Positions 6,479 through 34,710 of a DNA stretch of 64,000 nt are shown here, piece by piece. Numbering within the stretch: position 1 is the stretch's first letter; every line of letters starts with the position of its first letter. The notes below the pieces were generated by a model. It made no database searches. It had not been told where the DNA came from and saw nothing but the letters and a program-made list of their open reading frames with translations. The translations under genes were made by a program, and so were the position numbers. This DNA comes from Pseudorhodobacter sp. GTDB taxonomy: Bacteria > Pseudomonadota > Alphaproteobacteria > Rhodobacterales > Rhodobacteraceae. The stretch spans positions 582 to 64,581 of the forward strand of contig JANOGW010000049.1 of the NCBI GenBank assembly GCA_031406155.1, in the 5' to 3' direction.

Positions 6479-9400
6479 TTGGTTGCCTTTGCGATGCTTA
6501 GAATATTGCCTCTGTTTCAAGATGTTACCCGCGCGTTTCAGGGGGCTGTAAAGAATCACGCGCCCGCCGTTGCGGTGGTGCAGGGATCCGTTCAGATCAG
6601 TTACGCCGATCTGGACCGGCTGTCGGATGTGCTGGCGGACCGCCTGATCAAGGCAGGTGTGGCCTCTGGCAGTTTGGTCGGGCTGGCGGCAACGCAGGAC
6701 CCCGGCACCATCATCAGCATTCTGGCCATCCTGAAGGCGGGGGCAGGCTATGTGCCGCTGCCCGGCTATTACCCTGAGGCGCGGCTGCGCGTGATCGCCC
6801 AGGATGCCGGGCTTGCGCTGATCCTAGGCTCGGTGCCTGCCTTGGTGGAAATGACCATCCCCCAGACCTCGTTTGACTGGCAGTCCTGCACGGAAACCAC
6901 CAGCCCCAGCTTGCCGACGCTGGATGGCGAGGCGGTGGCCTATGTGATGTACACCTCCGGCTCTACCGGCGTGCCCAAGGGCGTCGTCGTGCCGCACCGC
7001 GCCATTCTGCGGCTGGTGCAGGGCCAGAATTTCATGGCGCTGGGGCCGGATGAGCGGATATTGCAGAACTCAGCCATCGCCTTTGATGCCGCCACGCTGG
7101 AGATTTGGGGTGCGCTGCTGAACGGTGGCACCTTGGTCATGCCAGAAGAGACCTCGGGCTCGCTCAGCGCGCTTGGCGAGGTGATCAGGGATCAGCGCAT
7201 CACCTCGATGTGGCTGACAGCAGGGCTGTTTCATGCCATGGCCGACACCCGGCCCGGCGATTTTGCCCCCCTGCGCCAGTTGCTGACCGGGGGCGATGTG
7301 GTGTCGCCTGCCTGCGTTGCAAAGGTGATGGCGGCTTGCCCCGGCCTGACGGTGATCAACGGCTATGGCCCGACCGAGAACACTACCTTCACCTGCTGCC
7401 ATACCATTACCCGCGCCGAGGCGGAACTGGGCATGTCCTTGCCCATCGGCCGCCCTATCAGCGGCACCGATGTGTTCGTGCTGGATGCAAACCTTGCCCC
7501 CGTGCCCGCAGGCGAGCCGGGGGAGTTGTTTGCTGCAGGCGAGGGTCTGGCACTTGGCTATCTGGGCCGGGCTGATCTTACAGCCGAGAAATTTATCGCA
7601 GCCCCGTGGGACGCTGATGTGACGCTGTACCGTACTGGCGATCTGGTGCGGCAAGACGCAAAGGGCGTAGTGCACTATCTAGGCCGGATCGATACGCAGG
7701 TGAAAATTCGCGGCTTCCGGATTGAGCTTGGTGAAGTTGAGGCGGCACTGGAGGCTACCGGCGGCATCAGCCAGGCCGTGGTTGTGGCGCGCGCTGGTGC
7801 CGATCATGCCGACAAAATGCTGGTCGCCTATTGTGTGGCGGGGGACGCACTTGATGAAGGCACCTTGCGGGCCAGCCTTGGCGCACGTCTGCCCGATTAT
7901 GCCGTGCCATCGCGGTTTGTGACGCTGCCCGCGCTGCCGTTGAACAGCAATGGCAAAGTTGATCGGCGCGCGCTGGAGGCACTGGCTTTGCCAAAAGCTG
8001 CCAAACCGGCAAAGCCCGCCACCAGCACGCACAGCCTAGAAGAAATGATTGCAGGCCAGTTGGCGACAGCCCTTGGCATCGATGAAAGTGATCTCGACCG
8101 CAGCGCCAATTTCTTTGATCTTGGCGCCTCGTCATTGCATGTGGCCCGGGTGCATGACGGGCTGCAAACAGCGCTGGACCGGCGCTTTCCGATCTCGGAT
8201 TTCTTTCTGCATTCGACCATCGCTGCCATGGCCACTCACTTGGGCAAACCCGCCAAGGCGGCGGGGCCTGTCATCCTTGCGCCAAAGAAAGATCGCTCTG
8301 ACACCGGACTGATCGCCATCATCGGGTTGGCGGGCAAGTTTCCCGGCGCGCGCTCGGCTGAGGAATTCTGGGACGGCCTGGTGGCGGGCCGCGAGATGAT
8401 TTCGCAGTTCACCCCGGAAGAGCTGGATATCGATCTGTCCAAGGGCGACGCGGGGGCTGGGTTTGTCAATGCGCGCGGCGTGATGCCGGATGCTGACATG
8501 TTCGATGCCAGGCATTTCAACATCCCGCCCCGCGAGGCGGAACGGATGGACCCGCAGCACCGGATTTTGTTGGAAGTGGCGCAGACGGCGCTCGACAGTG
8601 CCGGCCATGATCCCGCACAGTTTGCGGGCAAGATCGGTATCTATGCAGGCTCCAGCCAGAACTCGTATCTGCTGAACAATCTGCTGTCTGCGCCGGGTGC
8701 CTCGCGGGCTTACGCGGCCAGCTATCCGCTGGACGATTTCGCGACGCTGTTTGGCAATGACAAGGATTTCATCGCCACCCGCATCGCCTACAAGCTGAAC
8801 CTGCGCGGGCCTGCGGCGACAGTGCTGTGCGCCTGTTCGACGTCACTGGTGGCGGTGGCGCAAGGCTGCGAAAGCCTGTTGTCTGGCACCTCGGATATGG
8901 TGCTGGCGGGCGGTGTGTCTGTCACCTTCCCGTCAAAGCGCAATTACAAATACATGCCCGACGGCATGGCTTCGGCCGATGGTCATTGCCGGACGTTCGA
9001 TGCTGATGCGACCGGCACGGTGTTTGGCGATGGCGCGGGGCTGGTGGTGCTGCGCCGTCTGGAAGATGCGCTGGCGGATGGCGACACTGTCATCGCGGTG
9101 ATCCGGGGTTATTCGATCAACAACGACGGCTCGGAAAAGGCGGGTTATGCAGCGCCCTCGATCAAGGCGCAGGCGGCGGTCATTCAGGCGGCGCATCTGG
9201 CAGCCGGGGTGAATGCACGTGAGATCGGCTATATCGAGGCGCATGGCACCGCGACGCCGCTGGGTGACCCGATCGAATTTGCGGCATTGCATGCGGCGTT
9301 TTCGGCCAGCACCGATGCGCGCGGGTTTTGTGCCCTGGGGTCTGCCAAGACCAATGTCGGGCACTTGGATATTGCCGCCGGCATCACTGGGCTGATCAAG

Positions 9401-12400
9401 GCGGCACTGACGCTGCAACATGGCGTCATTCCGCCCCTGCTGCATTACAAGGCGCCGAACCCCCGGATGGATTTCGCCAATTCGGCGTTTTACCCGGTGG
9501 CAAAGCTGACCGATTGGCCGCGCGGTGGTGTGCCCCGTTTGGCGGGTGTGTCGGCCTTTGGCGTTGGTGGCACCAATATTCACATGGTGCTGCAAGAAGC
9601 GCCACAAGTGGCTGTGGTGGAAAGTGCCGCGCCACATGGCCCGCAGGTTTACCCGGTATCAGCATCGTCGCCCGAAGCGTTGAAGGCAGCAGTTGCAGAG
9701 CTTGGTGCCTGGGCTGCCGCTAACCCCAAGGCTGACGCTGGCGCTGTGCGTGCGACATTGCGCCGGGGGAGGCATGCTTACAACGAGCGCGCTGTTCTGG
9801 TGGCCGATGGTATGGCTGGTCTAGCCCAAGCCGCACAGGGCTTTGCGGGCAAATCCACCACAGCGGGACGGCGCGATGCAGTGGCCTTTCTGTTTCCGGG
9901 GCAGGGCGCGCAGCATGTCGGCATGGCAAAGGCGCTGTTCGATGCCGAACCAGTATTCCGCGAGGCATTAAGCCTTTGCACCACGCTGCTGAAGCCCGCA
10001 CTTGGGCTTGATTTGCTTGATGTTATCCATGCGCCGGACAACCTGCGCGAGCAGATGACAGCGCGGCTGAAAGATACGTCATTGGCGCAGCCCGCGATCT
10101 TCTCGATCGGCTATGCTTTGGCAAAGCAATGGGATCATTGGGGTATCCGTCCGGACGTGATGGTCGGCCATTCGATCGGCGAATTTGCCGCCGCAACCAT
10201 CGCGGGTGTGATTGATTTGCCCGATGCGCTTGGCCTGATCGCCCTGCGTGGTCGGCTGATGGCCGACTTGCCTGATGGGGTGATGGTATCGGTGCGTGCA
10301 TCCGAACAGGAACTTCAACCCTATCTGGGTGCGGGGCTTGATCTGGCAGCGGTGAATGGCGCAAAAGCCTGTGTTCTGGCCGGGTCGGAAGAGGCGGCAG
10401 CGGCGCTGTTGCCAACGCTGGAGGCGGCAGGGTTTGTAACCTCGCGCCTGCACACCAGTCATGCGTTTCATTCGTACATGATGGAACCGGCCGTTGCCCC
10501 GTTCCGTGCGGCCGTGGCCAAGATCAAGCTTCGCGCCCCGAAAATCCCGATCCTGTCGACGGTAATTGGTGACTGGCTGACCGAACAGGAAGCCACCGAC
10601 CCCGACTATTGGGCGGGCCATATGCGCCGCCCCGTGCGGTTCTATGATGCGATGCAGACGCTGTGGGCCGAGGGGCGGCATATCTTCCTTGAAACCGGCC
10701 CCGGTCGCACGATGGCAACGCTGGCCGGGCAAAACCCGGATCGCCGCCGCGCACAGCCTGCACTGGCGTCGTTGCCACATGCCCAAGCCGAAAACGCCGA
10801 TGCGCATCTGTCGATGCTGGAGGCGTTTGGTGGACTTTGGGCCAGTGGCTACCCGGTGGATTGGTCACGGCTTGAAGGCGACGGGCCAGAGCCGCACCGT
10901 GCCGCGGGCCTTCCGACCACTCCGTTCCAGCGCAAGCGGTTCTGGGTGGAACCCACGGATGTGGGAACCGCACCTGCCGCCGCCATTGCCCTTGAAGCCG
11001 CCCCTGCGGCAGATCAGATCACCGCCCCTGTACCGCAAATTTCCGCCGCCGACGCGCTGCGCGACATGCTGTCCGATCTGTCGGGCGTCGAGCCTGCCGA
11101 GATGGATGGCGGCGCCAGCTTTCTGGAACTGGGCTTTGATTCGCTGCTGCTGACGCAAGCCACGCGCGAGTTGTCTGAACGTTTTGGTGTGACGGTTACT
11201 CTGCGCCAGTTGATCGACGGCTTCCCCACCATTGATACGCTTGCCGCCCATATCGACGCGCATGGCAATCTGGCGGGCCGTGCCCCCGCCGACCGCACGC
11301 CGTTGGCCGAAATGACCCGGATCGAGGGCCGGGAGGAGGAGGCCGAAGCCACGCCATCTTCGGCCCCGATGACCAGGATCAGCCGCGAGACGGAAGAGCT
11401 GACACCCGCACAGCGCGGCCATATCGACGCATTGGTGGCGCGCTACACTGCGAAAACCGCGAAATCCAAGGCGTTGACGGCACAGTACCGGGGTGTGCAT
11501 GCCGATCCGCGCACCGCGTCCGGCTTCAACCGGCTGTGGAAGGAAATCGTCTATCAGATTGTCACCGTCAAATCGAAAGGCTCGCGGCTGATCGATGTCG
11601 ATGGCAATGAATACATCGATATCCTGAACGGTTTTGGCCCCGGTTTTCTGGGCCATGCACCTGAACAGGTGGTCAGCGCCTTGCATAGCCAACTGGATGC
11701 AGGCTTCGAGGTTGGCCCGCAAAGTCTGGCTGCGATGGAAGCTGCTGCCCTGTTCTGCGAAGTGACCGGCAACGACCGCGCCAGTTTCGTGTGCACCGGG
11801 TCGGAAGCGGTTTATGCCGCGATGCGGCTGGCCCGCACCTGCACCGGGCGTGACCGGATCGTGATGTTCGCGCGGGATTATCACGGCAATTTCGACGAAG
11901 TTCTAGTCCGCGGCATCGACGGCAAGGATGGCCCGCGCTCTCTGCCGATGGCCCCCGGCATTCCGCGCGATTCCGTGAAAAACGTGGTGGTGCTGCCCTA
12001 TGGTTCACCGCAGGCGCTGGATTACATTCGCCGCAACGCAGATACCATCGCCGCCGTGATCGTGGAACCGGTGCAAAGCCGCCGCCCCGAGTTCCGCCCC
12101 GCCGAGTTTATCCGCGAGGTGCGGCGGATCACTGAAAATGCAGGCTCGGTGTTCATCTTTGACGAAGTCGTCACCGGTTTCCGCTTTGGCCCGCGCGGCG
12201 CGCAGGGTTATTACGGTGTGGACGCTGACCTCGTGACTTACGGCAAGGTGGTGGGCGGTGGCATGCCGGTGGGCGTGGTGTCGGGCAAGGCCCGCTTCAT
12301 GGACACTTTTGATGGTGGTCCTTGGCAATATGGTGATGACAGCTTCCCGCAAGCGCCCGTAACCTTCTTTGCCGGTACCTTCGTGCGCCATCCGCTGGCG

Positions 12401-16843: not shown

Positions 16844-16847
16844 CACG

Positions 16848-17657
16848 ATGACGGCGATGGGCCCCAGCCGTTTGCCGATCCGTGCCGCAGACATTGGCGT
16901 GGCGCAGTGCCGTCTGGGGGATGACCGCGACATCACCCTGAGTGCTGCCTGGGCGCTGTTGTCGGCGGATGAGATCACACGCGCGCACCGCTTTCATTTT
17001 GACCGTGATCGAACTCGTTATGTGCGGGGGCGGGGGTTTTTACGCCAGATGCTGGGCCAGGTCTGCGGACAGAACCCGGCAAGTTTGATTTTTGGCACGG
17101 GCGCGCGGGGCAAACCGTTTTTGGCAGGCAGCAATCTGGGCAGCGATCTGGCCTTCAACCTGTCGCACAGCCGCGATCTGGCCGTTCTGGCCATCTCGCA
17201 AACCGGGCCTTTGGGGATTGATGTCGAATTTATCGACCGCAGCGCAGATCTGGCCGGGCTGACCCAAAGCTGCATGACCCCCGCCGAGGCCGCGGTTCTG
17301 GCAGCCCTGCCCGCAACCGAACGGCCTGCACGGTTCTTTGCGTTCTGGACGGCAAAAGAGGCCCGCATGAAACTGACCGGTGAGGGGATGTCCCTGGCCC
17401 CGCAGCAAATTGCGCTGGATTTGCGGGACGGTGTTCCAGTAGGCTATCTGCACCCCGGGACACCGGACGTGCAGGCCGTTTTTCTTGATCTGGGACATCC
17501 CCTTGCCCAGTGCTGTCTGGCGTTGGCACGGGGTCCCCAACCCGTTATTATCCCTCTTATTGCCACGACCCCCGTTATTATCATCACCAGTCCCCCTGTT
17601 ACGGAGTATGCGTATTTTGGCTCATTCGAGAGACACCATCAAACTTCTGGCCGGTAA
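16848..17657 (+). CDS. Sfp-type 4'-phosphopantetheinyl transferase
   Basis: GKPFL, FNLSHSRDLAVLA, GIDVEFI and FWTAKEARMKLTGEG motifs. It starts 5 nt after the megasynthase stop. The last ~40 codons look like read-through into an A/T-richer spacer. Confidence 0.85.
   Translation: MTAMGPSRLPIRAADIGVAQCRLGDDRDITLSAAWALLSADEITRAHRFHFDRDRTRYVRGRGFLRQMLGQVCGQNPASLIFGTGARGKPFLAGSNLGSDLAFNLSHSRDLAVLAISQTGPLGIDVEFIDRSADLAGLTQSCMTPAEAAVLAALPATERPARFFAFWTAKEARMKLTGEGMSLAPQQIALDLRDGVPVGYLHPGTPDVQAVFLDLGHPLAQCCLALARGPQPVIIPLIATTPVIIITSPPVTEYAYFGSFERHHQTSGR
17541..17582. repeat. Two perfect 12-bp direct repeats CCCGTTATTATC spaced 30 bp apart
   Basis: Copies at 17541-17552 and 17571-17582, with a degenerate third copy (CCCTGTTACGG) at ~17594. 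They lie just upstream of the GGAG/ATG (17608) of the methyltransferase gene. Confidence 0.9.
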
Positions 17658-18453
17658 CCTGTTGGAGGTTCTGGCCCCCTGGGTTCGGCGCGATCTGGAT
17701 GCAGATCGTCATTCTGGCCGCTTCATAAAGCTGAAGCGCTGGATCCTTTATGCCCGCACCACCCGGGCAAAGGCACGCGGCGATGCCTCTGCGTTGCAAA
17801 AAAGCCTGTTCCAGTTCTGGCGCGCCGACACCGCAGATCCCTATTTTGAGCGATACCAGGATCGCTATGACAAATGGTTTCTGGGGCCGCATCATGAAAT
17901 CGTCGATCAATTGGCAAAGCTTACCCGCAGTGGCGCCTACAACCACCTGGTCGAAGTTGGTTGCGGTTCCGGGCGAGTGCTGGCGCATTGCGCCGAGGCC
18001 ATGCCGCAGATGTCTGATTTCATCGGGGTCGACATCAACCCCGTCATTATCGCCCATGACAGGACCGCTTTCGCGCCGAACCCGCGGCTGCAATTCCTGG
18101 CTGCCGATGCGTCGGTCTGGCTGCAGAAAAACGCCAGACCCGGCACCATTTTGCTGACCTATGGCGGGGTGATGGAGTATTTCTCGGCCGAGACCCTGAG
18201 CGCGATGTTTTGTGGGCTGGCACAACATCACCCGGCCGCAGTGGCCCTGGTGGAACCGGTCGACCCCGACCACGATCTGGCAAATGATCCGGCATCGCAT
18301 GTCTTCGGACAGGAAAACTCGTTCTCGCACAATCATGAAAAATTGCTGCAAAATGCCGGCTACAGGACGCTGTTTCGCAAGGATCTGCGCCTTGGTGGGG
18401 CGTCATGGGTGATGCTTGTGGCCACGGCCGGACGGCAAAATTCCGGGCATTGA
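17608..18453 (+). CDS. Class I SAM-dependent methyltransferase
   Basis: Start taken at ATG 17608, preceded by GGAG (17603-17606). Motif I is VEVGCGSGRVL and post-I is FIGVDINP. It overlaps the PPTase tail by 50 nt. Confidence 0.75.
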   Translation: MRILAHSRDTIKLLAGNLLEVLAPWVRRDLDADRHSGRFIKLKRWILYARTTRAKARGDASALQKSLFQFWRADTADPYFERYQDRYDKWFLGPHHEIVDQLAKLTRSGAYNHLVEVGCGSGRVLAHCAEAMPQMSDFIGVDINPVIIAHDRTAFAPNPRLQFLAADASVWLQKNARPGTILLTYGGVMEYFSAETLSAMFCGLAQHHPAAVALVEPVDPDHDLANDPASHVFGQENSFSHNHEKLLQNAGYRTLFRKDLRLGGASWVMLVATAGRQNSGH

Positions 18454-27500: not shown

Positions 27501-30500
27501 GAGGCACTGGCAGCAGCCCTGCCTGCCATTCCGGCCCGTGTCCTGTCACTTTGGGCGCTCGATCCGGCCTTGTCAGACACTGTTTTCGATGCGGGCTATC
27601 TGCTGGCGCGCATGCTGCAGCAAGTGGATGCAGGCGCTGATACGCATCTGGTATTTGCTGCATCAGGGACTGTTTCAGCAGCGGGCGAAGCCATTAACAA
27701 CCCCCTTGCCGCAAGCCTGCTAGGGCCAGTGCGTGTTGGCCCGCGTGAAATTCCGGGGCTGACAGCGGCGCTGGTTGATCTGGCAGGTTTTGAGGGCGAT
27801 GCCCAAGCGGCCGAAGCCCTACTGGCCGAGGCGGCTGGCCCAACCGGCAATGATCATGTGGCGTTGCGCGGTGCCGATCGGTACATCCGGGCCCGTACTG
27901 CAGTGGCGGCACCGCTTCCAGACACGCTGCCACCCCGGCTGCGGCAAGGTGGCGTCTATGTGATCACCGGTGGAGTGGGCGGCATCGGGCGGCAAATGGC
28001 GCTGTGGTTGGCGCAAGCCGCCAGGGCGCGACTGGCGCTGATCTCGCGCAGCGCCAAACCTGATACCAGCTTTGAAGCCGCGATTATAGACGCCGGGGGT
28101 GAGGTGATCTTCCTCGCCGCTGATGTCACCGACTCTGCCGCGATGGAAACGGCGCTGGCTGCTGTGCGCAGCCGCTTTGGCGCCATCCACGGCGTGATCC
28201 ATGCGGCAGGCCTTTTGCACGATGCACCGCTGTCGGTAAAGCCGCTGGCCGAAGCGCAGGCAGGCATGGCCCCCAAGGTGAAGGGTGCCCGGGTGCTGCA
28301 CGGATTGCTGGCCGAGGGCACAGTTGATTTCTTCGCCGTCATCTCGTCGTCCTCCGTGATCATCGGCGGGGCGGGGCAGACCGATTATGTCGCCGCCAAT
28401 GCGGTGCTGGAGGCAGTTGCAGCCTCGCGCCGCGACGGGCTGTCCATCGCCTGGGGGGTGTGGCGCGATACCGGCATGGCGGCCCGGATGTACGGCGCAG
28501 GCGACAGTGTTGCCCCCTTGGGCAGTGATAGCCTGCTTGGCATGCGCCATGACGCTGCCGATGGCACCACGCATTTCGAGACGGTGATCGACCCCGATAG
28601 TGACTGGCGTGTCGCCGAACATGTGGTTGCAGGCCAACCTGTGCTGCCCGGCACGGCTTACGTGGAAATGGCCTATGCCGCCGCGGTTGCTGTGCTGGGT
28701 CAGGCGACATTCGAAATTCACGCCTTGTCGCTGGCCATACCGATGGTCTTTGACACTGGCCTGCCGCGCCGGGTTCTGGTGCATCTGAGCCCGGTGCATA
28801 ATGGGTTTGAATTGACCATCGAAAGCATATCCGGCCCAGCAGATGAGCCGCTGGAACATGCCCGTGCCCAGATCAAGATATTCCGCTATGAAGATCGCCA
28901 ACTGCCCGAAGGTATGGCCGATCCGGTTGCACTGGCTCCGGCCCCGCGATCTGGCCATGCCCCGCAAGAGGTGTTGATCGCCTTTGGCCCGCGCTGGAAA
29001 AATGTGGGTGCTGTGCGGATTAACGGCGATATTGCCGAAGGCGTGTTCACTCTGGCCCCGGATTTTGCCAGTGATCTGGCTGATCATCCGCTGCATCCGG
29101 CCCTGCTTGACATGGCCGCCACAGTGGGGCTGCATTGCCTGGCTGATGGCGGCGCAGGCGACGCGGTTTATGTTCCGATGTCAGTGGACCGGATTCGGGT
29201 GTTGCACCCTTTGCCGATGTCACTTGTCGCGCGCGCCCGGCGGGTGGCAGGCGAAGAGGGCAAGTTTACCGCCTTTGATGTGGTGATTTCCACACCTGAT
29301 GGCATTGATCTGATGGTGCTTGAACATCTGGCGCTGCGGGCCGTGTCGGGCGGGACATTGCAGACCGAACCGACCCCTGTCAGCCTGACCGGTCAGTTAC
29401 TGGCAACAGGCATTCGCACCACCGAGGCCGCGGATCTGCTGGCCCGGGTCTTCGCCCACCCGGCACGCGCCCTTGTGGTATCGCCAGTGCCGCTTGATCT
29501 GGTGCGTCTGGCGATGACAGAAGGCCTCCGTCCGGTGGTTGTGGGGCAAAAACGCCAAGGCGGCAGTGGTGGGGCCATCGCTGATCCGGTCAGTGCACGC
29601 GTGGCCGCGATCTGGGGCGAAATTCTGGGTATTGACGCCGTTGGAGCGGACGATGATTTCTTCGCGCTTGGGGGTCATTCGCTGAATGCCGTGCGGATGT
29701 TTGGCCGGATCCGCAAGGAATTTGGCCATAACCTGCCGCTGGCAACCCTGTTCGAGGCGCCACGCGTCAGGGATCTGGCAGCTGTTTTGAAAGATCACGG
29801 CGTCAGCATTGCTGTACCTGCCGAAGTGGCAGCCCCGCTCGCAGCACTGCCCCCGCTGGTGCCCGCCACCCCAACCAGCCCACAGATCCTGACGGCCCCG
29901 CGCCAGATCGAGATGACTGAGGCGCAACGCGAAATTGCAACCGCGATCCTGATAAACCCCGACAGCTCGTTGTCCTACAATCTGTCCTTCAGCCTGCATA
30001 TCAAGGGCAAGCCAGACCCCAAGGCTCTGCAAGCAGCCCTTGACGGGGTCATTGCTCGGCATGACAGCCTGCGCGCTGGTTTCGATGTGGAACGGTTTAT
30101 CCTGACCATCCGGCCCACAGCCGAAGTGCCGTTGCAACTGGCCGATCTGATCGGCCTCCCTGCGAGCGAACAGTCCGTCAAACGGCACAACTTGCATGAA
30201 ACCATCGCTGGACAGGCCTTTGATCTGATCCAGGGGCCGGTAATCCGGGCTGTGCTGGTGCACCTGTCGGAAACCCGCCATGAACTGATGCTGTTCGTGC
30301 ATCACATAGCTTGCGATGGCTGGTCGATGGGCGTCGTAATGCAGGATCTGGCCGCGCTTTATTCTACCGCAGCGGGCGGATCAGCCGCCCCGCTAGACCC
30401 TCCGGGCAGCATCGCAGACCTGCTGGCGGCAGAAACCACCTGGGCAGGATCGCACGACGCTGCGGCGCATCGCGATTACTGGCTTCAGACCTTTGCAGAT

Positions 30501-33500
30501 GGCATCCCAGCCATGGATCTGCCGACCGATCGGCCGCACTCGCAGGTCATGACAACCCATGCCGACCGGGTCACCAGCCTGCTGGATCCCGCCCTTGAAC
30601 GCAGCCTGCGCGCGCGCGCGGCCGAGGCCGAAACTTCGCTGCGCACCCTGATCTTCGGGGCATTCCAGCTATATCTGTCGCGGCTGACGGGGGCACGCGA
30701 TGTGGTGGTGGGTCTGCCCGCATCAGGGCAGTTGTCACATGGGCTGGAAGGGGTGGTCGGGCACGGCGTGAACTTCCTGCCGATCCGGGCCAGGATCGAC
30801 ACCGGGGCAAGCCTCGCAGCCTTTCTTGCCCAGACCCGGCACAGCATCCTGGAAGCGATGGACCATCAGAATTACACCTATGGGTCGCTGATGCGCGATA
30901 TGAACGTGGCGCGAGATCCGTCCCGGGTTGCCATTGTGCCGGTGGTCATCAACATCGACAATCTGGCGGACGTTCTGCACTTCAAAGGCCTGGAAACCGA
31001 ACTGGTCGCCAATTCAACGGGGCATGAGCATTTCGAGTTGTTCTTCAATCTGCTGGATGCGGCGGGCAGGGTAACATTCGCCTGGAATTACAATACGGAT
31101 CTTTTCGACCGCGAGACGGTGGAACTGCATGCCGAGAATTTCCTGCGTCTTCTGCGTGCAATTGTGCGGCCGGAAAACGGCTTGAACACGCCACTGGGAA
31201 CATTCCTGATCGGCGATACCCGGCGCCCCGCCAGCGGGACACATGAAGATCCCGGGGCCAAGGGTCCACAGACCATCACCGAAGTGTTCGGTGCCGTCGC
31301 CGCCCGTATGCCGGACCGCATTGCCCTGCGCTTTGGCAGCCAGACAATGGATTATGCCACTTTGAATGCCCGGTCAGACGTGCTGGCGGCACATCTGGCG
31401 GCTGAGGGTATCGAGGCGGGTGATCTGGTCGGGATTTCCTCGCAGCGATCTCTTGCACTTCTGGTGGCTGTGCTGGGGGTGCTGAAGGCGGGGGCGGGCT
31501 ATGTGCCCTTCGATGCGGCCCTGCCCGCCGCGCGGCTGGAGTTCATGGCAAAAGATACCGGGATCAAGATTTTGCTCGGGTCTTGTCCACCGGTGACGGC
31601 GGCTGGCGTGAAAACACTGCCCCATGAGGCATTCCCCGCCAAAGCGGCGCCCGCCCCAAACCCACAGATCACCGGGGCGTCGATTGCCTATGTGATGTTC
31701 ACCTCAGGGACCACTGGCACGCCCAAAGGGGTTGTGCTGCCGCACAGGTCCGTGATCCGGATGCTGTGCGATACAGACTGGCTTCGGCTTGGTCCGGATA
31801 CGGTGACGCTGCATTCATCGGCCTTCGCCTTTGACACCTCTATCATTGATATCTTCGGGGCCCTTCTGCATGGCGGGACGGTGGTGATCCCCAAGGATGG
31901 CGCGCTGTCCATCGCCGATCTGGCGGACGCCGTGGCAAACCACGGGGTGAACACGCTCTGGCTGACATCGGGGCTGTTTCATGCTGTGGCCGACAGCCGG
32001 CCATCCGCCTTCGAAAAGGTGGATCAGGTGATTGTGGGGGGGGATATCGTGTCGCCCGGTCATGTGGCCCGGGTCAAAGCCGCTTGCCCGGATGTGGCCG
32101 TGATCAACGGTTATGGCCCGACCGAAAGCAATGTGACCAACGCCCATGTGATTGAAGCCGCCGATCTTGCCCTGGGCCAGGCGTTGCCGATCGGGCGCGC
32201 CGTGCCGGGCACGCAGATCTATATTCTGGACGAGTATCTGCAACCGGTGCCGACGGGTGTGATGGGCGAGTTGTGCATCGCGGGCCGGGGGCTGGCGCTG
32301 GGGTATTGGAACCGGCCTGACCTCACGGCCGAGAAATTCATCACTGTGCCGTGGCAGCCTGGATTGCGGCTGTACCGATCCGGTGATCTGGCGTTGGACC
32401 CGGGCAACGGAGTGCTGCGCTTTTTTGGCAGGATGGACACACAGGTGAAAATCCGAGGGTTCCGCGTCGAGTTGTCGGAAGTGGAAGCCGCCATTGAAAG
32501 CCATCCGAACGTGCAGCAGGCCGTGGTAATAGCCACTGTGCCAGACGGGCAGACCGACAAGATCCTTGTCGCCTATTTTGTGATGAAAGACCCCAAGGCC
32601 AGGACCGTCACCCCTGCAGCCCTGGCCGACCATGTCAGATCGCGCCTGCCCGACTTTGCACGACCCACTTTCTTTGTCGCCGTGGACGCGATACCGCTGA
32701 ACCCCAATGGCAAGGTAGATCGCCGACGGCTGCCGCCGGTGTCAGCCGGCACCCCCGATCCGCAAGGCGATGCGTCCCTGACCACGATGGAACGGCGCTT
32801 GGCCATGATCTGGGGCGATGTTCTGGGACATCGCAAGATTGGTGCGGCCTCAAATTTCTTTGCGCTTGGCGGGCATTCGCTGTTAGCGGTGCGGCTGTTC
32901 GACCGGATCCGTAACGAACTTGGGGTGGATCTGCCGATTTCGACCCTTTTCCAGCATCAGACCCTGCGCGATCTGGCCACGATCATCCCCGACCCCGCAG
33001 GAGCCGCTGCCGGGCAGGCAGCGCAGCACGGCGCTGACCCGGAAGCTGACTGGGATACCAGCACGGTGATCCATTCTGGCCCCGATACAGGGGGTGGACG
33101 GGCGTTGTTCATCGTCGGCGGGGTCGGCGGTAATGTGAACAATCTGGTAGAGCTTGGCCGGCTGCTCGGGCGCCGCCGGCGTGTCATCGGGTTCCAGACA
33201 CGTGGCGTGCTGGGCCACCGCCCGCGCGGATCAATTGAAGAGATGGCGCAGGAAAACATCCGCTATCTGCGCCAGCATCAGGCACGGGGCCCCTATCTTC
33301 TGGCCGGATATTCGGGCGGCGCTTTAACGGCCCTGGAAATGGCTCGACAGCTTGAAGTGGCGGGTGACGAGATCCTGCAGCTTTTCATTCTTGACACTTT
33401 TGCGCCGGGTTTTGCTGTTGATTTTGTGCCCAAGGTGCGGACCAGCCTGAAACGACGCTTGCAGCATGAGGTGGCCTCGCTTCAGGATGAAGGGGTTGGC

Positions 33501-33863
33501 TATCTGTTCGAGCGGATTTGGCACAAGATCAACCACGCCGTGATGCGGGGCCCAATTCTGACGGCGATGCGCCGGATCAGCCTGTCACACTACCGCTATC
33601 AGGTGATGGAGAAGGCATGGCGCGCGGCGGCGCGGGGCTACATGGGTGGCCCGCTTCGTGGTCAGATCACCTTGTTCAGATCGCGCCCGGTGCGGCTGAT
33701 GCAAAAGCTGTCGCTGGAAGCTGATCCCAGTCTGGGTTGGGCTGAGGTGGCCGAAGGGACCGCACCCGAACTGATCCCGATTACCGGCGATCACCTGAGT
33801 ATGCTGAAGGGTGAGAATGTGCAAAATCTGGCGCATCTTATTGAGCAGCGTGCCGGGGACTGA
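24549..33863 (+). CDS. Hybrid PKS-NRPS megasynthase: KS-AT-KR-DH-T-C-A-T-TE
   Basis: 3104-aa ORF; domains are read from core motifs. KS (TACSTSLVAV, HGTGTPIGD, GHLDTAAG; ~24590-25860). AT (FPGGGAQY, AHSVGE, VAAHS; ~26140-27050). KR (GGVYVITGGVGGIG from ~27948, YVAAN; ~27300-28480 including the structural half). DH (HVVAGQPVLP, His codon 28620-28622; ~28540-29350). T (GGHSL ~29670). C (HHIACDG 30300-30320). A (FTSGTTGTPKG ~31700). T (GGHSL ~32870). TE (GYSGG; ~33050-33863). Confidence 0.95.
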   Translation: MSDDFTDTGAPDNRIAIIGRAGRFPAARNVAEYWDMLQSGRRAASKLNEADLLAAGVSRKMLADPTYVREANILPDMECFDAGFFGFSPREASILDPQHRHFLETAWEAFEDAGHMPENFDGRIGVYAGSGMQAYLPFNLLSNPALVEEIGLFLLRHTGNDKDFLTTRLSYLMNLTGPSVAVQTACSTSLVAVHMAVNSLLNMECEMAIAGGVTIELPHRVGYRFAEGEILSPDGLCRAFDDESQGTVFGSGAALVVLRRYADAVADGDDIKAVILGTAINNDGAGKASYLAPSVDGQAEAAAEAVALAGVTPQSISYIEAHGTGTPIGDPIELAALQQVYGKAPKGSIGIGSVKTNIGHLDTAAGGASLIKVIEAMRHKHLPASLNFKTPNSRFDFAKSPFEVVSKGRDWPAGPTPRRAAVNSLGVGGTNAHVIVEEAPARAKTNSTDGWRVFPFSAKTPSALARTGDKWAPFLASDTPDPADIAFTLRTGRRAFPERMAVAARGPDDLAAALTAKASAYLQKGKAGATPPSIVFLFPGGGAQYPGAGAGMLAQSPAFAKAVADCFAALPKDAPADLHEVMFARTLEDAEARGKLGQSGYAIPALFILEYAYAKHWQSWGITPDAILAHSVGEYAGAVTAGAMNLSDALRIVTLRGQVMDAAPAGAMTTVPKCAPAVQEMLGEHLDIAAINMAEATVVSGPLAVIEALEARLADTDHAARRIHIDVAAHSRQLDGQLDRFRAGFDGVRFGKLTVPMVSSLRGDWAQDDDITSADYWVRHLRHTVRFTDAIAATFATDNRIVIEVGPGQTLGPLVDMASLTHRPVAILPSAPRPRDGTDEMGVVSAAFGGLWANGVPVDWALLHGAEGQRVSLPTYAFEKERHWVEPGRGAVSEDAAEATPDLTRIPDMADWVEVLDWDIAARSGASPDLRGNWLVLAGAEALSSAVLARLERAGASVTVLRAGAGFSATSDGFTLRPDATEDFEALAAALPAIPARVLSLWALDPALSDTVFDAGYLLARMLQQVDAGADTHLVFAASGTVSAAGEAINNPLAASLLGPVRVGPREIPGLTAALVDLAGFEGDAQAAEALLAEAAGPTGNDHVALRGADRYIRARTAVAAPLPDTLPPRLRQGGVYVITGGVGGIGRQMALWLAQAARARLALISRSAKPDTSFEAAIIDAGGEVIFLAADVTDSAAMETALAAVRSRFGAIHGVIHAAGLLHDAPLSVKPLAEAQAGMAPKVKGARVLHGLLAEGTVDFFAVISSSSVIIGGAGQTDYVAANAVLEAVAASRRDGLSIAWGVWRDTGMAARMYGAGDSVAPLGSDSLLGMRHDAADGTTHFETVIDPDSDWRVAEHVVAGQPVLPGTAYVEMAYAAAVAVLGQATFEIHALSLAIPMVFDTGLPRRVLVHLSPVHNGFELTIESISGPADEPLEHARAQIKIFRYEDRQLPEGMADPVALAPAPRSGHAPQEVLIAFGPRWKNVGAVRINGDIAEGVFTLAPDFASDLADHPLHPALLDMAATVGLHCLADGGAGDAVYVPMSVDRIRVLHPLPMSLVARARRVAGEEGKFTAFDVVISTPDGIDLMVLEHLALRAVSGGTLQTEPTPVSLTGQLLATGIRTTEAADLLARVFAHPARALVVSPVPLDLVRLAMTEGLRPVVVGQKRQGGSGGAIADPVSARVAAIWGEILGIDAVGADDDFFALGGHSLNAVRMFGRIRKEFGHNLPLATLFEAPRVRDLAAVLKDHGVSIAVPAEVAAPLAALPPLVPATPTSPQILTAPRQIEMTEAQREIATAILINPDSSLSYNLSFSLHIKGKPDPKALQAALDGVIARHDSLRAGFDVERFILTIRPTAEVPLQLADLIGLPASEQSVKRHNLHETIAGQAFDLIQGPVIRAVLVHLSETRHELMLFVHHIACDGWSMGVVMQDLAALYSTAAGGSAAPLDPPGSIADLLAAETTWAGSHDAAAHRDYWLQTFADGIPAMDLPTDRPHSQVMTTHADRVTSLLDPALERSLRARAAEAETSLRTLIFGAFQLYLSRLTGARDVVVGLPASGQLSHGLEGVVGHGVNFLPIRARIDTGASLAAFLAQTRHSILEAMDHQNYTYGSLMRDMNVARDPSRVAIVPVVINIDNLADVLHFKGLETELVANSTGHEHFELFFNLLDAAGRVTFAWNYNTDLFDRETVELHAENFLRLLRAIVRPENGLNTPLGTFLIGDTRRPASGTHEDPGAKGPQTITEVFGAVAARMPDRIALRFGSQTMDYATLNARSDVLAAHLAAEGIEAGDLVGISSQRSLALLVAVLGVLKAGAGYVPFDAALPAARLEFMAKDTGIKILLGSCPPVTAAGVKTLPHEAFPAKAAPAPNPQITGASIAYVMFTSGTTGTPKGVVLPHRSVIRMLCDTDWLRLGPDTVTLHSSAFAFDTSIIDIFGALLHGGTVVIPKDGALSIADLADAVANHGVNTLWLTSGLFHAVADSRPSAFEKVDQVIVGGDIVSPGHVARVKAACPDVAVINGYGPTESNVTNAHVIEAADLALGQALPIGRAVPGTQIYILDEYLQPVPTGVMGELCIAGRGLALGYWNRPDLTAEKFITVPWQPGLRLYRSGDLALDPGNGVLRFFGRMDTQVKIRGFRVELSEVEAAIESHPNVQQAVVIATVPDGQTDKILVAYFVMKDPKARTVTPAALADHVRSRLPDFARPTFFVAVDAIPLNPNGKVDRRRLPPVSAGTPDPQGDASLTTMERRLAMIWGDVLGHRKIGAASNFFALGGHSLLAVRLFDRIRNELGVDLPISTLFQHQTLRDLATIIPDPAGAAAGQAAQHGADPEADWDTSTVIHSGPDTGGGRALFIVGGVGGNVNNLVELGRLLGRRRRVIGFQTRGVLGHRPRGSIEEMAQENIRYLRQHQARGPYLLAGYSGGALTALEMARQLEVAGDEILQLFILDTFAPGFAVDFVPKVRTSLKRRLQHEVASLQDEGVGYLFERIWHKINHAVMRGPILTAMRRISLSHYRYQVMEKAWRAAARGYMGGPLRGQITLFRSRPVRLMQKLSLEADPSLGWAEVAEGTAPELIPITGDHLSMLKGENVQNLAHLIEQRAGD

Positions 33864-33891
33864 ACCTGGTGGCGCATGGAGGCGGTTCACA

Positions 33892-34710
33892 TCACTCGAC
33901 CTGGTTGTCGAGGAAATCTTTCATCACCCCAATCAGGCCATGCGCCGCCAGATTGGCATGGCCCCCGCCGGGAAGGGCTGCAAAGGCCTTTGGGGCAGGG
34001 GCGACAGCAAAAAGCTGTTGCCCCCAGGCAAGCGGCACATCCATGTCCGCCGTGCCGTGAACAAACAGTTTTGGTGCAGAAATCCGTTCTACCCGGTCAA
34101 TCACATCATAGCGTTCCGCCCACATCAGGGCACAGAATGGAAGGCCGCGATAGCGCCTTTGATAGTAGACACAGGCACGTGGAAAACTGGCTTCCAGCAC
34201 CACGGCGGCAAAAGGCCGCTCGACCGCCAGACGACTGCCAACGCCGACCCCCAGACTGAAGCCATGCACAGCCCGACGGCTTTGCGCAATTGTCTGCCCG
34301 GCCAGCACGTCCAGTTGATCATAAAGCGCGCGCGCATCGCGGGCGAAGTTTTCCTCGGAGGGACGGCCCGGCATACCGCCACCACCCCGATAGTGCAGCA
34401 TGACGATGCCGGTGCCATCCGCGATCAGCGGGGCAAGCCGCTGCATTGACGGACCTATGGCAGAAAAATTTCCGTAAAAGCTGAACAGCATCGGCTTTCC
34501 CGGGGCTGGCACCGACAACCAGGCCTGCACCGGAGCACCGTCTTCCGAACTAAAGCCCACCACCTTGACCCCAGCCAAGCCAACGGCTTCGGGCGATTGC
34601 GCGGTCTGGTCAAAGCGATAGATCCCGTAAGTCTGAAAGGCCCAGATGCCGCCCGACAACAGCGCCAAGGCAAGGGAAAAGGCCGCAAGGCTGATTTGAA
34701 AGCTCGTCAT
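33892..34710 (-). CDS. Alpha/beta-fold hydrolase with N-terminal signal/anchor helix
   Basis: N-terminal hydrophobic LAAFSLALALLSGGIWAF and nucleophile elbow HGFSLGVG (GxSxG). A C-terminal HGTADMDVP...GGGH fits an Asp/His triad arrangement. It is convergent with the PKS-NRPS gene across a 28-nt gap. Confidence 0.7.
   Translation of the reverse strand: MTSFQISLAAFSLALALLSGGIWAFQTYGIYRFDQTAQSPEAVGLAGVKVVGFSSEDGAPVQAWLSVPAPGKPMLFSFYGNFSAIGPSMQRLAPLIADGTGIVMLHYRGGGGMPGRPSEENFARDARALYDQLDVLAGQTIAQSRRAVHGFSLGVGVGSRLAVERPFAAVVLEASFPRACVYYQRRYRGLPFCALMWAERYDVIDRVERISAPKLFVHGTADMDVPLAWGQQLFAVAPAPKAFAALPGGGHANLAAHGLIGVMKDFLDNQVE

What the first reader, a model, noticed from the sequence alone, without database searches (positions are those of the whole stretch)
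6479..34710. Plasmid-borne orphan NRPS/PKS assembly line with an architecture I cannot map to a characterised pathway
Seen: three co-directional megasynthase genes of 3454, ~1477 and 3104 aa. With them are an Sfp-type PPTase, a SAM methyltransferase, a polytopic membrane protein and a convergent secreted-looking alpha/beta hydrolase. My hand-extracted A-domain specificity residues suggest Val-like, beta-amino-acid-like, Gly-like and one unassigned substrate. I saw no MbtH-like ORF, no regulator and no dedicated exporter inside the block. Inference: the product is a small mixed peptide-polyketide, or two related ones. It would carry an aminated ketide unit and an enoyl ketide unit, possibly N-formylated or oxidatively tailored. 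Its location next to the replicon and inside an EPS locus makes it horizontally mobile accessory chemistry.
Basis: partly seen in the sequence, partly recalled or inferred. Interest (0 to 1): 0.8.

Follow-up and report, generated by a model that had tools for sequence, protein, structure and literature searches.

The report
Two adjacent orphan NRPS–PKS units
The block is real and intact, but it is two separable hybrid peptide–polyketide gene units placed side by side, each belonging to a widespread family with no known product, one of them related to the Roseobacter NRPS/PKS cluster that has been uncharacterised since about 2007.

Summary
Three co-directional synthetase genes (3454, 1491/1477 and 3104 aa) lie with an Sfp-type PPTase, a SAM methyltransferase, a 7-TM protein and a convergent signal-anchored serine hydrolase. 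They sit 1.1 kb from a RepA/ParAB plasmid replicon, inside an exosortase-type EPS locus. All catalytic motifs are intact.

The interpretation needs revision in two ways.

1. The block is two separable units.
- Unit A: g1 (A-PCP-KS-AT-ACP-AmT-C-A-PCP-TE), PPTase, MT, membrane protein.
- Unit B: g2 (F-halfC-A[MOx]-PCP, Gly), g3 (KS-AT-ψKR-KR-DH-ACP-C-A-PCP-TE), hydrolase.
- Each unit occurs alone in other genomes. A decayed ParE/RelB module marks the seam here.

2. It is not a singleton. The same A+B arrangement recurs in at least six other Rhodobacterales loci. The g2-type loader defines about 1,100 protein clusters across phyla. A sister version is probably the conserved Roseobacter NRPS/PKS/GT/PPTase cluster, whose product is unknown.

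Each part follows known logic: iturin/puwainaphycin β-amination, formylglycine loading, MtaG/PuwE-type α-hydroxylation. The combinations are undescribed, and both units recur beside polysaccharide genes. Verdict: new variant of a known kind, product unknown, moderate interest.

The parts
6479..16843 (+). g1, Unit A synthetase (3454 aa): A1(Val-like) 6539-7957, PCP 8054-8242, KS 8312-9448, AT(malonyl, HAFH) 9887-10783, ACP 11051-11254, class III aminotransferase 11555-12640, C 12869-14200, A2(beta-Ala-like) 14258-15688, PCP 15776-15961, TE 16076-16813
   Evidence: Pfam/NCBIfam. Motifs: KS Cys/His/His, GHSIG+HAFH, HHIVCDG, GYSGG. PLP-Lys motif YGKVVGGG at aa 1923. Codes.
16848..17657 (+). Sfp/HetI-type 4'-phosphopantetheinyl transferase (Unit A)
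   Evidence: PF01648 + PF22624. NCBIfam HetI best hit. Follows g1 in L057, L059, L060 and the syntenic loci.
17608..18453 (+). Class I SAM-dependent methyltransferase (Unit A); probable ATG start overlaps the PPTase stop by 50 nt
   Evidence: Methyltransf_25/12/11. Start analysis. Conserved next to the PPTase in L059 and L060.
18529..19341 (+). 7-TM membrane protein, 270 aa, weak Rce1/CPBP-like signal with an FxxxH motif; function unknown
   Evidence: Hydropathy. PF02517 E=0.005, below cut-off. Orthologues at 42-77% identity in syntenic loci. 258-275-aa counterparts in L057, L059, L060.
19595..19888 (+). ParE-family toxin ORF (97 aa), preceded by a frameshifted and stop-interrupted RelB/DinJ-like antitoxin remnant (~19440-19590); marks the seam between Unit A and Unit B
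   Evidence: Six-frame reading. PF05016 35.8 bits versus cut-off 23. The mem-to-g2 spacer is about 730 nt here versus about 150-380 nt in L001/L004.
20074..24507 (+). g2, Unit B loading module (1477 aa from ATG; ORF opens at TTG 20032): formyltransferase N+C lobes 20074-20976, relic half condensation domain 20959-21573, A domain (Gly) N-part 21661-22272, luciferase-like monooxygenase (TIGR04020) 22294-23352, A C-part 23395-24147, PCP 24226-24417
   Evidence: TIGR04020 489 bits. PDB phmmer. AF2 pLDDT 92.4 and Foldseek ArnA/Fmt hits. Half-C: AF2 pLDDT 90.5 and Foldseek C-domain hits. MOx versus PuwE 6ket, 2.7e-106. Asn87/His89 invariant and Asp125 nearly invariant. Code.
24549..33863 (+). g3, Unit B PKS-NRPS (3104 aa): KS 24585-25712, AT (atypical AHSVG...VAAH) 26151-26972, psiKR+KR 27309-28469, DH 28533-29360, ACP 29598-29786, C 29907-31169, A (DTIWIGGVTK) 31296-32714, PCP 32796-32981, TE 33102-33848
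   Evidence: Pfam. psiKR assignment from PDB phmmer. Motifs. Code.
33892..34710 (-). Convergent alpha/beta serine hydrolase with an N-terminal signal anchor (Unit B)
   Evidence: Weak Hydrolase_4/Peptidase_S9. GFSLG motif. Conserved convergent partner of g3 in L002-L013, L027, L056, L058, where it is annotated 'acetylxylan esterase'.
35808..39758 (.). Plasmid replicon: RepA (35808-36962, -), ParA (37289-38677, +), ParB-position ORF (38727-39758, +)
   Evidence: PF10134 2.8e-97 and ParA-type AAA_31/CbiA. 77-80% nt identity to Rhodobacteraceae plasmids annotated 'replication initiator protein A', 'AAA family ATPase' and, in one record, 'ParB N-terminal domain-containing protein'.
69..6294 (+). 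Left EPS flank: AAA ATPase, GNVR/Wzz-like, CpsD/CapB-type kinase, GT2, unassigned ORF, FrhB-like protein
   Evidence: Pfam. The same gene series lies upstream of Unit A in L057 and L060 and upstream of mt-mem-g2 in L005/L008/L014.
39790..63875 (.). Right EPS flank of exosortase type: GT2, ABC-HlyD-TolC secretion system, beta-helix protein, Wzy-like, sulfotransferase-like, flippase, pyruvyl transferase, GT4, exosortase EpsH+DUF3485 (57747-59372, -), TPR protein (61749-63875, -)
   Evidence: Pfam.

Best explanation
The 28-kb block is two intact hybrid assembly-line units that are inherited separately and lie side by side on a RepA-type Rhodobacteraceae plasmid. Each belongs to a conserved family with no known product.

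Unit A (g1, PPTase, MT, membrane protein).
- Shown: domain order A-PCP-KS-AT-ACP-AmT-C-A-PCP-TE with all catalytic residues present.
- Inferred chemistry: a Val-type amino acid is loaded and extended once with malonate. The beta-keto group is transaminated, as in iturin/mycosubtilin and puwainaphycin. This would give a 3,4-diamino-5-methylhexanoyl unit, an amino analogue of a statine residue. That unit is condensed with a beta-Ala-type residue and released by the TE. The MT may methylate the product.

Unit B (g2, g3, periplasmic hydrolase).
- Shown: g2 is F-halfC-A(Gly)[MOx]-PCP and g3 is KS-AT-psiKR-KR-DH-ACP-C-A-PCP-TE.
- Inferred chemistry: glycine is loaded and N-formylated by the Fmt/ArnA-type domain. 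The embedded PuwE/MtaG-type flavin monooxygenase hydroxylates its alpha-carbon. The unit is passed to the g3 KS, extended with one malonyl-type unit, reduced and dehydrated to an enoyl C4 unit. It is then condensed with an aliphatic amino acid and released.
- g2 looks like an MtaG-type C-A-MOX-A-T module in which the catalytic lobe of the C domain was replaced by a formyltransferase. The formyl group would then supply the N-acyl cap that the monooxygenase normally finds on a peptidyl-glycine.

The units probably share the Unit A PPTase, which may explain why they are so often adjacent.
For: Architecture and integrity.
Specificity codes. The Gly code is invariant across Rhodobacterales and Phenylobacterium.
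F domain: PDB sequence hits; AF2 pLDDT 92 with Foldseek ArnA/Fmt hits, TM 0.74-0.81 on the target; Asn87/His89 invariant and Asp125 nearly invariant in 33 homologues.
Half-C relic. No HHxxxDG in g2.
MOx: TIGR04020; PuwE 6ket 2.7e-106; PuwE AmT+MOx credited with the 3-amino-2-hydroxy-acyl unit (PMC4219810); MtaG/MelG Gly alpha-hydroxylation (PMC11411415).
F-A(Gly)-PCP feeding a KS: PMC4504003.
Separability: Unit A alone in Roseovarius L059, metagenome L060 and M344 L057. Unit B alone in Phenylobacterium L056, with its own PPTase, and in M344 L058, 57 kb from Unit A. TA remnant at the seam.
A+B adjacency in L001, L004, L006, L009, L012, L013.
Family size: 1,095 representatives at E<=1e-30.
Against: No product, transcript or enzyme assay exists, so every chemical step is inferred from domain homology. 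The g3 A-domain code and the g3 AT motif (AHSVG...VAAH) do not match standard signatures, so two building blocks are unknown. The DH sits after the KR, which is unusual for cis-AT modules. Iterative use of the PKS, or beta,gamma rather than alpha,beta dehydration, cannot be excluded. The fate of an N-formyl-alpha-hydroxyglycyl thioester is open: it could be retained, cyclised, or collapse to glyoxylyl plus formamide. The roles of the MT, the membrane protein and the hydrolase are unassigned. Frequent A+B adjacency could mean that they cooperate on one product.
Confidence: 0.6

Rival explanations
1. One pathway, one product. The two lines cooperate: the amine-rich Unit A product is acylated by the Unit B chain, through the g3 TE or after release. 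MT, membrane protein and hydrolase serve the joint product.
For: A and B are adjacent in the same order in at least seven loci of different genera. Unit B has no PPTase of its own in Rhodobacterales. MT and the membrane protein are found with Unit A alone (L059, L060) and directly upstream of g2 without g1 (L005, L008, L014). g3 variants lacking C-A-PCP co-occur with g1 in L006, L012 and L013.
Against: Each unit occurs alone in other genomes. Each line has its own loading module and its own TE. No docking or condensation domain links them. A toxin-antitoxin remnant separates them here. g3-core variants also occur with no g1 within 8-10 kb (L005, L008).
Confidence: 0.2
2. Cryptic formylation in Unit B. 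The formyl group is only a transient N-acyl cap. After MOx hydroxylation the carbinolamide collapses, as in MtaG/MelG, to formamide plus glyoxylyl-S-PCP. The true PKS starter is then glyoxylate, and the product carries a 4-oxo-but-2-enoyl (fumaraldehyde-type) electrophile on an amino acid.
For: MtaG/MelG precedent for N-acyl-Gly hydroxylation followed by C-N cleavage that leaves the alpha-keto acid on the carrier (PMC11411415). g2 retains the C-terminal lobe of a C domain, consistent with descent from a C-A-MOX-A-T module. F and MOx are strictly co-conserved across the family.
Against: No glyoxylyl-primed PKS turned up in my literature search. From general knowledge, N-acyl-alpha-hydroxyglycines are fairly stable without a lyase. 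This would be a costly route to a common metabolite. Nothing in the sequence distinguishes retention from loss of the formamide.
Confidence: 0.15
3. Unit B starts an oxazole, as in oxazolomycin, conglobatin, inthomycin and phthoxazolin. N-formylglycine is extended by malonate and cyclodehydrated to a 5-substituted oxazole.
For: The same F-A(Gly)-PCP-to-KS logic (PMC4504003; PMC5764310 listed).
Against: Those pathways have an OzmP/CongE PP-loop ATPase, to which oxazole closure is attributed. None is present in the block or conserved with the cassette. The only SGGxDS motif in the window is in an unrelated ORF at 48.1-49.5 kb. The oxazole route needs the beta-ketone, whereas g3 has active KR and DH. 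The MOx has no role in that chemistry.
Confidence: 0.05
4. The cluster is a decaying, non-functional passenger on the plasmid.
For: A broken toxin-antitoxin module lies inside the block. In L060 the g1 orthologue is called as several ORFs, and in M344 IS3 elements abut Unit A.
Against: There are no internal stops in about 24 kb of coding sequence, and every catalytic motif checked is intact. Orthologues are conserved at 60-95% per domain across genera.
Confidence: 0.03

Closest known systems
Conserved Roseobacter NRPS/PKS/glycosyltransferase/PPTase cluster (Martens et al.; Collins et al. 2015, PMC4337385), product unknown
   Same: The sister loci (Tritonibacter horizontis L037; Paracoccus, Shimia, Albidovulum, others) encode the same two proteins as Unit B. 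These are F-halfC-A[MOx]-PCP with the same Gly code, and KS-AT-psiKR-KR-DH-ACP-TE, at 40-50% identity.
   Different: The gene order is reversed, with a GT2 gene between PKS and NRPS. The PKS ends in ACP-TE without C-A-PCP. There is no convergent hydrolase and no Unit A. That L037-type loci are the Martens cluster is inferred from gene composition and taxonomy, not from sequence comparison with the published loci.
MtaG / MelG (myxothiazol, melithiazol) terminal module C-A-MOX-A-T-TE
   Same: A Gly-type A domain is interrupted between core motifs A4 and A5 by a luciferase-like monooxygenase. For MtaG the insertion site is from memory. The expected reaction is alpha-hydroxylation of an N-acyl-glycyl thioester.
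   Different: g2 is a loading module, not a terminal one. The catalytic C lobe is replaced by a formyltransferase. There is no TE. The product is passed on to a KS.
F-A-PCP formyl-amino-acid loading modules: OzmO (oxazolomycin), CongA (conglobatin), rhizopodin loader, LgrA (linear gramicidin)
   Same: An N-terminal formyltransferase with the Asn/His/Asp triad, a Gly-specific A domain (OzmO, CongA) and hand-over to a PKS KS.
   Different: g2's F domain is a two-lobed Fmt/ArnA-type (about 300 aa) followed by a half C domain. LgrA chains are only marginal sequence hits (E 0.1-0.5). The A domain carries a monooxygenase. There is no OzmP/CongE cyclodehydratase.
Iturin/mycosubtilin MycA and puwainaphycin PuwE / microginin-type beta-aminating PKS-NRPS
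   Same: KS-AT-ACP-AmT-C-A-PCP order with a class III aminotransferase that would convert the beta-keto thioester to a beta-amino acyl unit. g2's MOx is closest to the PuwE MOx.
   Different: g1 starts with an amino-acid A domain (Asp235 and Lys517 present) instead of a fatty acyl-AMP ligase. The predicted unit is therefore a beta,gamma-diamino acid, not a beta-amino fatty acid. Only one NRPS module follows before the TE. AmT and MOx are on different assembly lines.
Statine / vinylogous-amino-acid forming modules (didemnin or pepstatin-type A-PCP-KS-AT-KR-ACP; syringolin/glidobactin A-PCP-KS-AT-DH-KR-ACP-TE)
   Same: An amino acid is extended by one malonate on a single PKS module and the beta-position is then modified. 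This comparison rests on my own knowledge and was not tested here.
   Different: Unit A aminates instead of reducing. Unit B has the DH after the KR, and its starter is N-formylated and probably hydroxylated.

Membership tests
Type I hybrid NRPS-PKS assembly line | Carrier domains with the Ser attachment site, KS Cys-His-His, AT nucleophile Ser, A-domain core motifs, C-domain HHxxxDG, TE GxSxG, and a cognate Sfp-type PPTase | tested here: met
   All are present in g1-g3. The PPTase is at 16848-17657.
MtaG/MelG-type monooxygenase-interrupted A domain | TIGR04020-type luciferase-like monooxygenase inserted in the A domain between A4 and A5 | tested here: met
   TIGR04020 489 bits at aa 755-1107. 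The AMP-binding model is split at positions 241/247. The GrsA alignment places the insert between residues 239 and 278.
MtaG/MelG-type monooxygenase-interrupted A domain | Glycine specificity | tested here: met
   DILQMGMIWK versus the Gly code DILQLGLIWK, 8/10. Invariant across orthologues.
MtaG/MelG-type monooxygenase-interrupted A domain | Catalytic upstream C domain and a terminal TE on the same protein (C-A-MOX-A-T-TE), releasing a terminal amide | tested here: not met
   Only one lobe of a C domain is present and there is no HHxxxDG. g2 ends in PCP and is followed by a KS.
MtaG/MelG-type monooxygenase-interrupted A domain | Alpha-hydroxylation of carrier-bound N-acyl-glycine | not testable with these tools
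   Inferred from the 2.7e-106 match to the PuwE MOx and from the literature.
Formyl-amino-acid loading module (LgrA, OzmO, CongA) | N-terminal formyltransferase fold with the catalytic Asn, His and Asp | tested here: met
   Foldseek ArnA/Fmt E 1e-22, TM on target 0.74-0.81. Asn87 and His89 invariant, Asp125 at least 90% conserved.
Formyl-amino-acid loading module (LgrA, OzmO, CongA) | Formyl transfer from formyl-THF to the carrier-bound amino acid | not testable with these tools
   Needs an in vitro assay.
Oxazole-forming formylglycine pathways (oxazolomycin, conglobatin) | OzmP/CongE-type PP-loop (SGGKDS) cyclodehydratase encoded with the loader | tested here: not met
   No such ORF is in the block. 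The single SGGHDS motif is at about 48.86 kb in an ORF with no Pfam hit. There is none among the conserved neighbours.
Iturin/puwainaphycin-type beta-aminating hybrid synthetase | KS-AT-ACP-AmT-C order with a class III aminotransferase carrying the PLP lysine | tested here: met
   (Aminotran_3 6.7e-47). YGKVVGGG at aa 1923. 2,298 homologues of the ACP-AmT-C unit, some named 'iturin family lipopeptide synthetase A'.
Iturin/puwainaphycin-type beta-aminating hybrid synthetase | Fatty acyl-AMP ligase starter giving a beta-amino fatty acid lipopeptide | tested here: not met
   The g1 N-terminus is an amino-acid adenylation domain. TIGR01733 matches two stretches of g1, and the code DALWLGGTCK has Asp235 and Lys517.
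Conserved Roseobacter NRPS/PKS/GT/PPTase cluster | Four-gene set with a glycosyltransferase gene accompanying the NRPS and PKS genes | tested here: not met
   There is no GT between or beside g2 and g3 in the window. A GT2 lies between them in L020, L021, L023, L032, L033, L037 and L049. Protein identity to those loci is only 40-50%, so Unit B is a sister, not a member.

The most novel reading that the evidence does not exclude
The NRPS-PKS units are not free-standing antibiotic chemistry. They are functionally tied to exosortase-type exopolysaccharide or glycoconjugate biosynthesis. They might make a small formylated or aminated acyl-peptide that decorates, primes or anchors a polysaccharide, or a signal that controls it. 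The alpha-hydroxyglycine hemiaminal or the diamine could be the attachment point. If so, this would also suggest a function for the conserved Roseobacter NRPS/PKS/GT cluster, which has no known product.
Probability: 0.2. Interest if true: 0.8.

Novelty: new variant of a known kind. Interest (0 to 1): 0.48.

Why it matters
A four-gene NRPS/PKS/GT/PPTase cluster is present in about half of sequenced Roseobacter genomes and has had no product or function since it was first noted (PMC4337385). This window carries a divergent relative, plus a second assembly line, on a small plasmid of about 65 kb together with its own PPTase. That makes it a compact target for heterologous expression.

The analysis yields concrete, testable chemistry. 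One loader is predicted to make N-formyl-alpha-hydroxyglycine. I found no description of the F-halfC-A[MOx]-PCP combination in the literature I could search. A second line is predicted to make a beta,gamma-diamino ('amino-statine') pseudo-dipeptide.

The analysis also shows module swapping between close relatives: the second A domain of g1 varies, and the C-A-PCP of g3 is present or absent. Both units recur beside polysaccharide genes, which suggests where to look for a phenotype.

Tried and rejected
1. Megablast of the block against PLSDB gave no close relative. The best hit was 73% over 1.2 kb of KS.
2. An exact look-up of the window's own g2 protein found no contig on record, and the cluster look-up returned no names. 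The organism therefore remains unnamed. The closest relatives are Pseudorhodobacter MAGs at 81%.
3. A literature search for 'Atu3671' found nothing. The Paracoccus marcusii paper only lists a related hybrid cluster as uncharacterised.
4. The idea that KR-before-DH marks a PUFA- or enediyne-like iterative PKS was dropped. The 'mid'+KR segment aligns end to end with modular-PKS KR domains (EryAI KR1, AmphB KR). Iteration is still not excluded.
5. Pfam found nothing in g2 aa 300-535 even at E<=5. Only structure prediction identified it as half a C domain.
6. My first strict regexes suggested missing KS Cys, KR Tyr and carrier Ser residues. Direct alignment showed that all are present.
7. The oxazole route was rejected for lack of an OzmP/CongE homologue and because KR and DH are present.
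8. Exosortase genes were not detectable within the 10-kb flanks of the other loci. The exosortase link therefore rests on the window and the M344 plasmid only. The broader link is to GT and EPS genes.
9. The large word-indexed protein search did not return full-length g1 orthologues. Unit A contexts come from only four loci.

Full report
OBSERVATION. None has an internal stop. Domain matches reach E = 1e-147, so chance is not an issue. Between and after them lie four accessory genes:
- an Sfp/HetI-type PPTase at 16848-17657;
- a class I SAM methyltransferase, probable start 17608, ending at 18453;
- a 270-aa protein with about seven TM segments at 18529-19341;
- a convergent 272-aa serine hydrolase with an N-terminal hydrophobic anchor at 33892-34710(-).
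The block ends 1.1 kb from a RepA/ParA/ParB replicon (35808-39758). That replicon is 77-80% identical at the DNA level to Phaeobacter, Tritonibacter and Leisingera plasmids. No MbtH motif occurs in any frame, and no regulator or transporter family is recognisable between 6.4 and 35.8 kb.

DOMAIN ANATOMY. Scanning overlapping pieces gave every domain.
- g1 is A-PCP-KS-AT-ACP-AmT-C-A-PCP-TE.
- g2 is an N-terminal region of about 530 aa, then an A domain split by a TIGR04020 (MupA/Atu3671) luciferase-like monooxygenase, then a PCP.
- g3 is KS-AT-(about 320 aa)-KR-DH-ACP-C-A-PCP-TE.
All catalytic residues are present: both KS Cys/His/His sets, the carrier serines, HHIVCDG and HHIACDG, KR GGVGGIG...YVAAN, DH HVVAGQPVLP, both TE GYSGG motifs, and the AmT PLP lysine. 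The g1 AT has the malonyl signature (GHSIG...HAFH). The g3 AT is atypical (AHSVG...VAAH). The 320-aa segment plus KR aligns end to end with complete modular-PKS KR domains such as EryAI KR1 and AmphB KR. It is therefore the psiKR structural subdomain, and the DH unusually follows the KR.
Specificity codes were read against a GrsA reference that reproduces DAWTIAAICK:
- g1-A1: DALWLGGTCK (Val-type);
- g1-A2: VDWLFSLADK (beta-Ala / beta-amino type);
- g2: DILQMGMIWK (Gly, 8/10);
- g3: DTIWIGGVTK (unassigned).

THE g2 N-TERMINUS. Residues ~70-300 match Fmt/ArnA/sugar N-formyltransferases by sequence. An AlphaFold model of residues 1-539 (pLDDT 92.4) superposes on ArnA and Fmt over about 310 residues (E to 1e-22, TM 0.74-0.81 on the target). 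Asn87 and His89 are invariant and Asp125 is nearly invariant in 33 diverse homologues, so an active formyltransferase is likely. Pfam saw nothing in the remaining ~200 residues. Modelled alone (pLDDT 90.5), this segment hits only NRPS condensation domains: McyB-C1, Txo1, TomB and the RzmA starter C. It covers about half of each (TM 0.55-0.60 on the query, about 0.35 on the target). g2 has no HHxxxDG motif. g2 is therefore F-halfC-A[MOx]-PCP. The monooxygenase is closest to PuwE (PDB 6ket, E = 2.7e-106). PuwE's AmT and MOx domains are credited with making the 3-amino-2-hydroxy-acyl unit of puwainaphycins (PMC4219810). In MtaG/MelG the same kind of Gly-A-MOX domain hydroxylates the alpha-carbon of N-acyl-glycine (PMC11411415). 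The simplest reading is that g2 descends from an MtaG-like C-A-MOX-A-T module whose catalytic C lobe was replaced by a formyltransferase.

NOT A SINGLETON. A scan of one genome per species with g2 found 55 loci. tblastn tiling shows the full order g1-PPTase-MT-membrane protein-g2-g3-hydrolase(-) in two Pseudorhodobacter MAGs (g2 81% identical), in Rhodobacterales HKCCE3408 and HKCCE2091, and in a Paracoccaceae MAG. The Roseicyclus locus has the same order but no methyltransferase hit. At 40-50% identity the g2 + KS-AT-KR-DH-ACP-TE pair occurs in Paracoccus, Tritonibacter, Shimia, Albidovulum, Planctomycetota, Myxococcota and Chloroflexota. An exhaustive search with the F-halfC region found 1,095 representatives of 50%-identity clusters at E <= 1e-30. 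The full-length ones are about 1,500-1,600 aa, like g2. Sources give only generic names.

TWO UNITS, NOT ONE.
- Unit A (g1, PPTase, MT, membrane protein) stands alone among housekeeping genes in Roseovarius sp. S1116L3 (L059). It also stands alone in an EPS locus on a metagenome contig (L060) and on the Aliiroseovarius sp. M344 plasmid (L057).
- Unit B (g2, g3, hydrolase) stands alone with its own PPTase in a Phenylobacterium chromosome (L056). On the same M344 plasmid it lies 57 kb from Unit A (L058).
- In the window the seam between the units holds a ParE toxin ORF (19595-19888; 35.8 bits) and a frameshifted RelB/DinJ-like antitoxin.
- The modules are shuffled between close relatives. The second A domain of g1 varies: beta-Ala-type in the window and L006, Val-type in L012 and L057, and other codes in L004 and L013. 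g3 lacks C-A-PCP in L005, L006, L008, L011, L012 and L013. The Gly code of g2 is invariant.

MECHANISM (inferred).
- Unit A: a Val-type residue is extended by malonate. The beta-ketone is transaminated, giving a 3,4-diamino acid (an amino analogue of a statine unit). This is joined to a beta-Ala-type residue and released.
- Unit B: glycine is loaded, N-formylated and alpha-hydroxylated. It is passed to the g3 KS, extended, reduced and dehydrated, joined to an aliphatic amino acid and released.
- Alternatives for Unit B: collapse of the hydroxyglycine to a glyoxylyl starter (cryptic formylation); beta,gamma-dehydration to an N-vinylformamide; or lactonisation. The sequence cannot discriminate among these.
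- The oxazole route of oxazolomycin and conglobatin is unlikely. The OzmP/CongE PP-loop enzyme credited with ring closure (PMC4504003) is absent from the block and from the conserved neighbours, and KR and DH are active.

POLYSACCHARIDE CONTEXT. The flanking locus is of the exosortase type. It contains EpsH+DUF3485, a TPR protein, a flippase, a pyruvyl transferase, GT4, GT2, a Wzy-like protein, the AAA-Wzz-kinase trio, and a type I secretion system with a beta-helix protein. This context is not unique to this plasmid.
- The same AAA-Wzz-kinase-GT2 series (55-70% identity) precedes Unit A in M344. A partial series (GNVR, kinase, GT2) precedes it in L060.
- That series directly precedes MT-membrane protein-g2-g3core in L005, L008 and L014.
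- The FrhB-like gene immediately upstream of g1 is conserved in L060.
- In M344, Unit B is followed by a VPLPA-CTERM sorting-domain protein and a TPR protein 46-47% identical to the window's.
- In seven sister-family loci a GT2 gene sits between the PKS and NRPS genes, with GT2 or WecG neighbours. Planctomycetota loci also carry a GT2 after the PKS.
- Counter-examples exist: Roseovarius L059 and Phenylobacterium L056. The link is therefore a lead, not a result.

RELATION TO WHAT IS KNOWN. Collins et al. 2015 (PMC4337385) describe a cluster of NRPS, PKS, glycosyltransferase and PPTase. It is conserved in 28 of 57 Roseobacter genomes, was first noted by Martens et al., and its product is uncharacterised. 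The L037-type sister loci have that composition, so Unit B is best seen as a divergent relative of that orphan. This rests on gene content, not on direct sequence comparison with the published loci. Unit A is a variant of the iturin/puwainaphycin beta-aminating logic with an amino-acid starter in place of a fatty acid. I found no paper describing the F-halfC-A[MOx]-PCP loader or a product for any member. The related Paracoccus plasmid cluster is also uncharacterised (PMC8273931).

VERDICT. The finding is a new variant of known kinds of assembly line. It is widespread and of unknown product, with a plausible but unproven tie to exopolysaccharide biology. antiSMASH/MIBiG comparison and any experiment were outside the tools available.

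Noticed in passing
window 19440-19888: A type II toxin-antitoxin remnant lies inside the biosynthetic block. There is an apparently intact ParE toxin ORF (19595-19888, 97 aa). It is preceded by a RelB/DinJ-like antitoxin broken by a frameshift and a stop. It sits exactly between the two biosynthetic units.
   Followed up: partly
window 39790-63875: The polysaccharide locus is of the exosortase/PEP-CTERM type (EpsH+DUF3485 at 57747-59372(-), TPR protein 61749-63875(-), flippase, pyruvyl transferase, GT4, Wzy-like). It also includes an ABC-HlyD-TolC type I secretion system (41057-45740) followed by a 622-aa beta-helix/NosD-like protein (46037-47905), which could be its secreted substrate.
   Followed up: partly
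window 48092-49546 (-): A 484-aa ORF with a PP-loop-like SGGHDS motif but no Pfam family at E<=1e-4. It lies in the EPS part of the plasmid, about 14 kb from the synthetases. Its function was not assigned.
   Followed up: no
window 26151-26972 (g3 AT domain): The AT has non-canonical motifs: AHSVG instead of GHSxG, and VAAH where malonyl and methylmalonyl ATs have HAFH and YASH. The extender unit is therefore uncertain. No extender-unit biosynthesis genes are nearby.
   Followed up: no
L001 versus L006 (two Pseudorhodobacter MAGs); also L004, L012, L013, L057: Close relatives differ by whole modules. The second A domain of g1 is swapped (beta-Ala-type, Val-type, others). The C-A-PCP of g3 is present in L001 but absent in L006. 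This points to recent combinatorial exchange within the family.
   Followed up: partly
window 5053-6294; L060 8515-9759: An FrhB/FdhB-like (F420 hydrogenase beta-type) gene lies immediately upstream of g1 in the window and in an independent metagenome contig. Such proteins often accompany polysaccharide pyruvyl transferases, and one of those is at 55242-56423.
   Followed up: no
L057 (Aliiroseovarius sp. M344 plasmid NZ_CP081154, record 73775-76271): Two IS3 transposase genes abut the methyltransferase of Unit A, at the place where Unit B follows in the window. Unit B sits 57 kb away on the same plasmid. IS-mediated rearrangement may have separated the two units there.
   Followed up: no
window 34790-35703: The two ORFs between the hydrolase and repA (138 and 122 aa) have no family match and odd composition. 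They are probably non-coding, and the 1.1-kb spacer may hold the replication origin or iterons. This was not examined.
   Followed up: no
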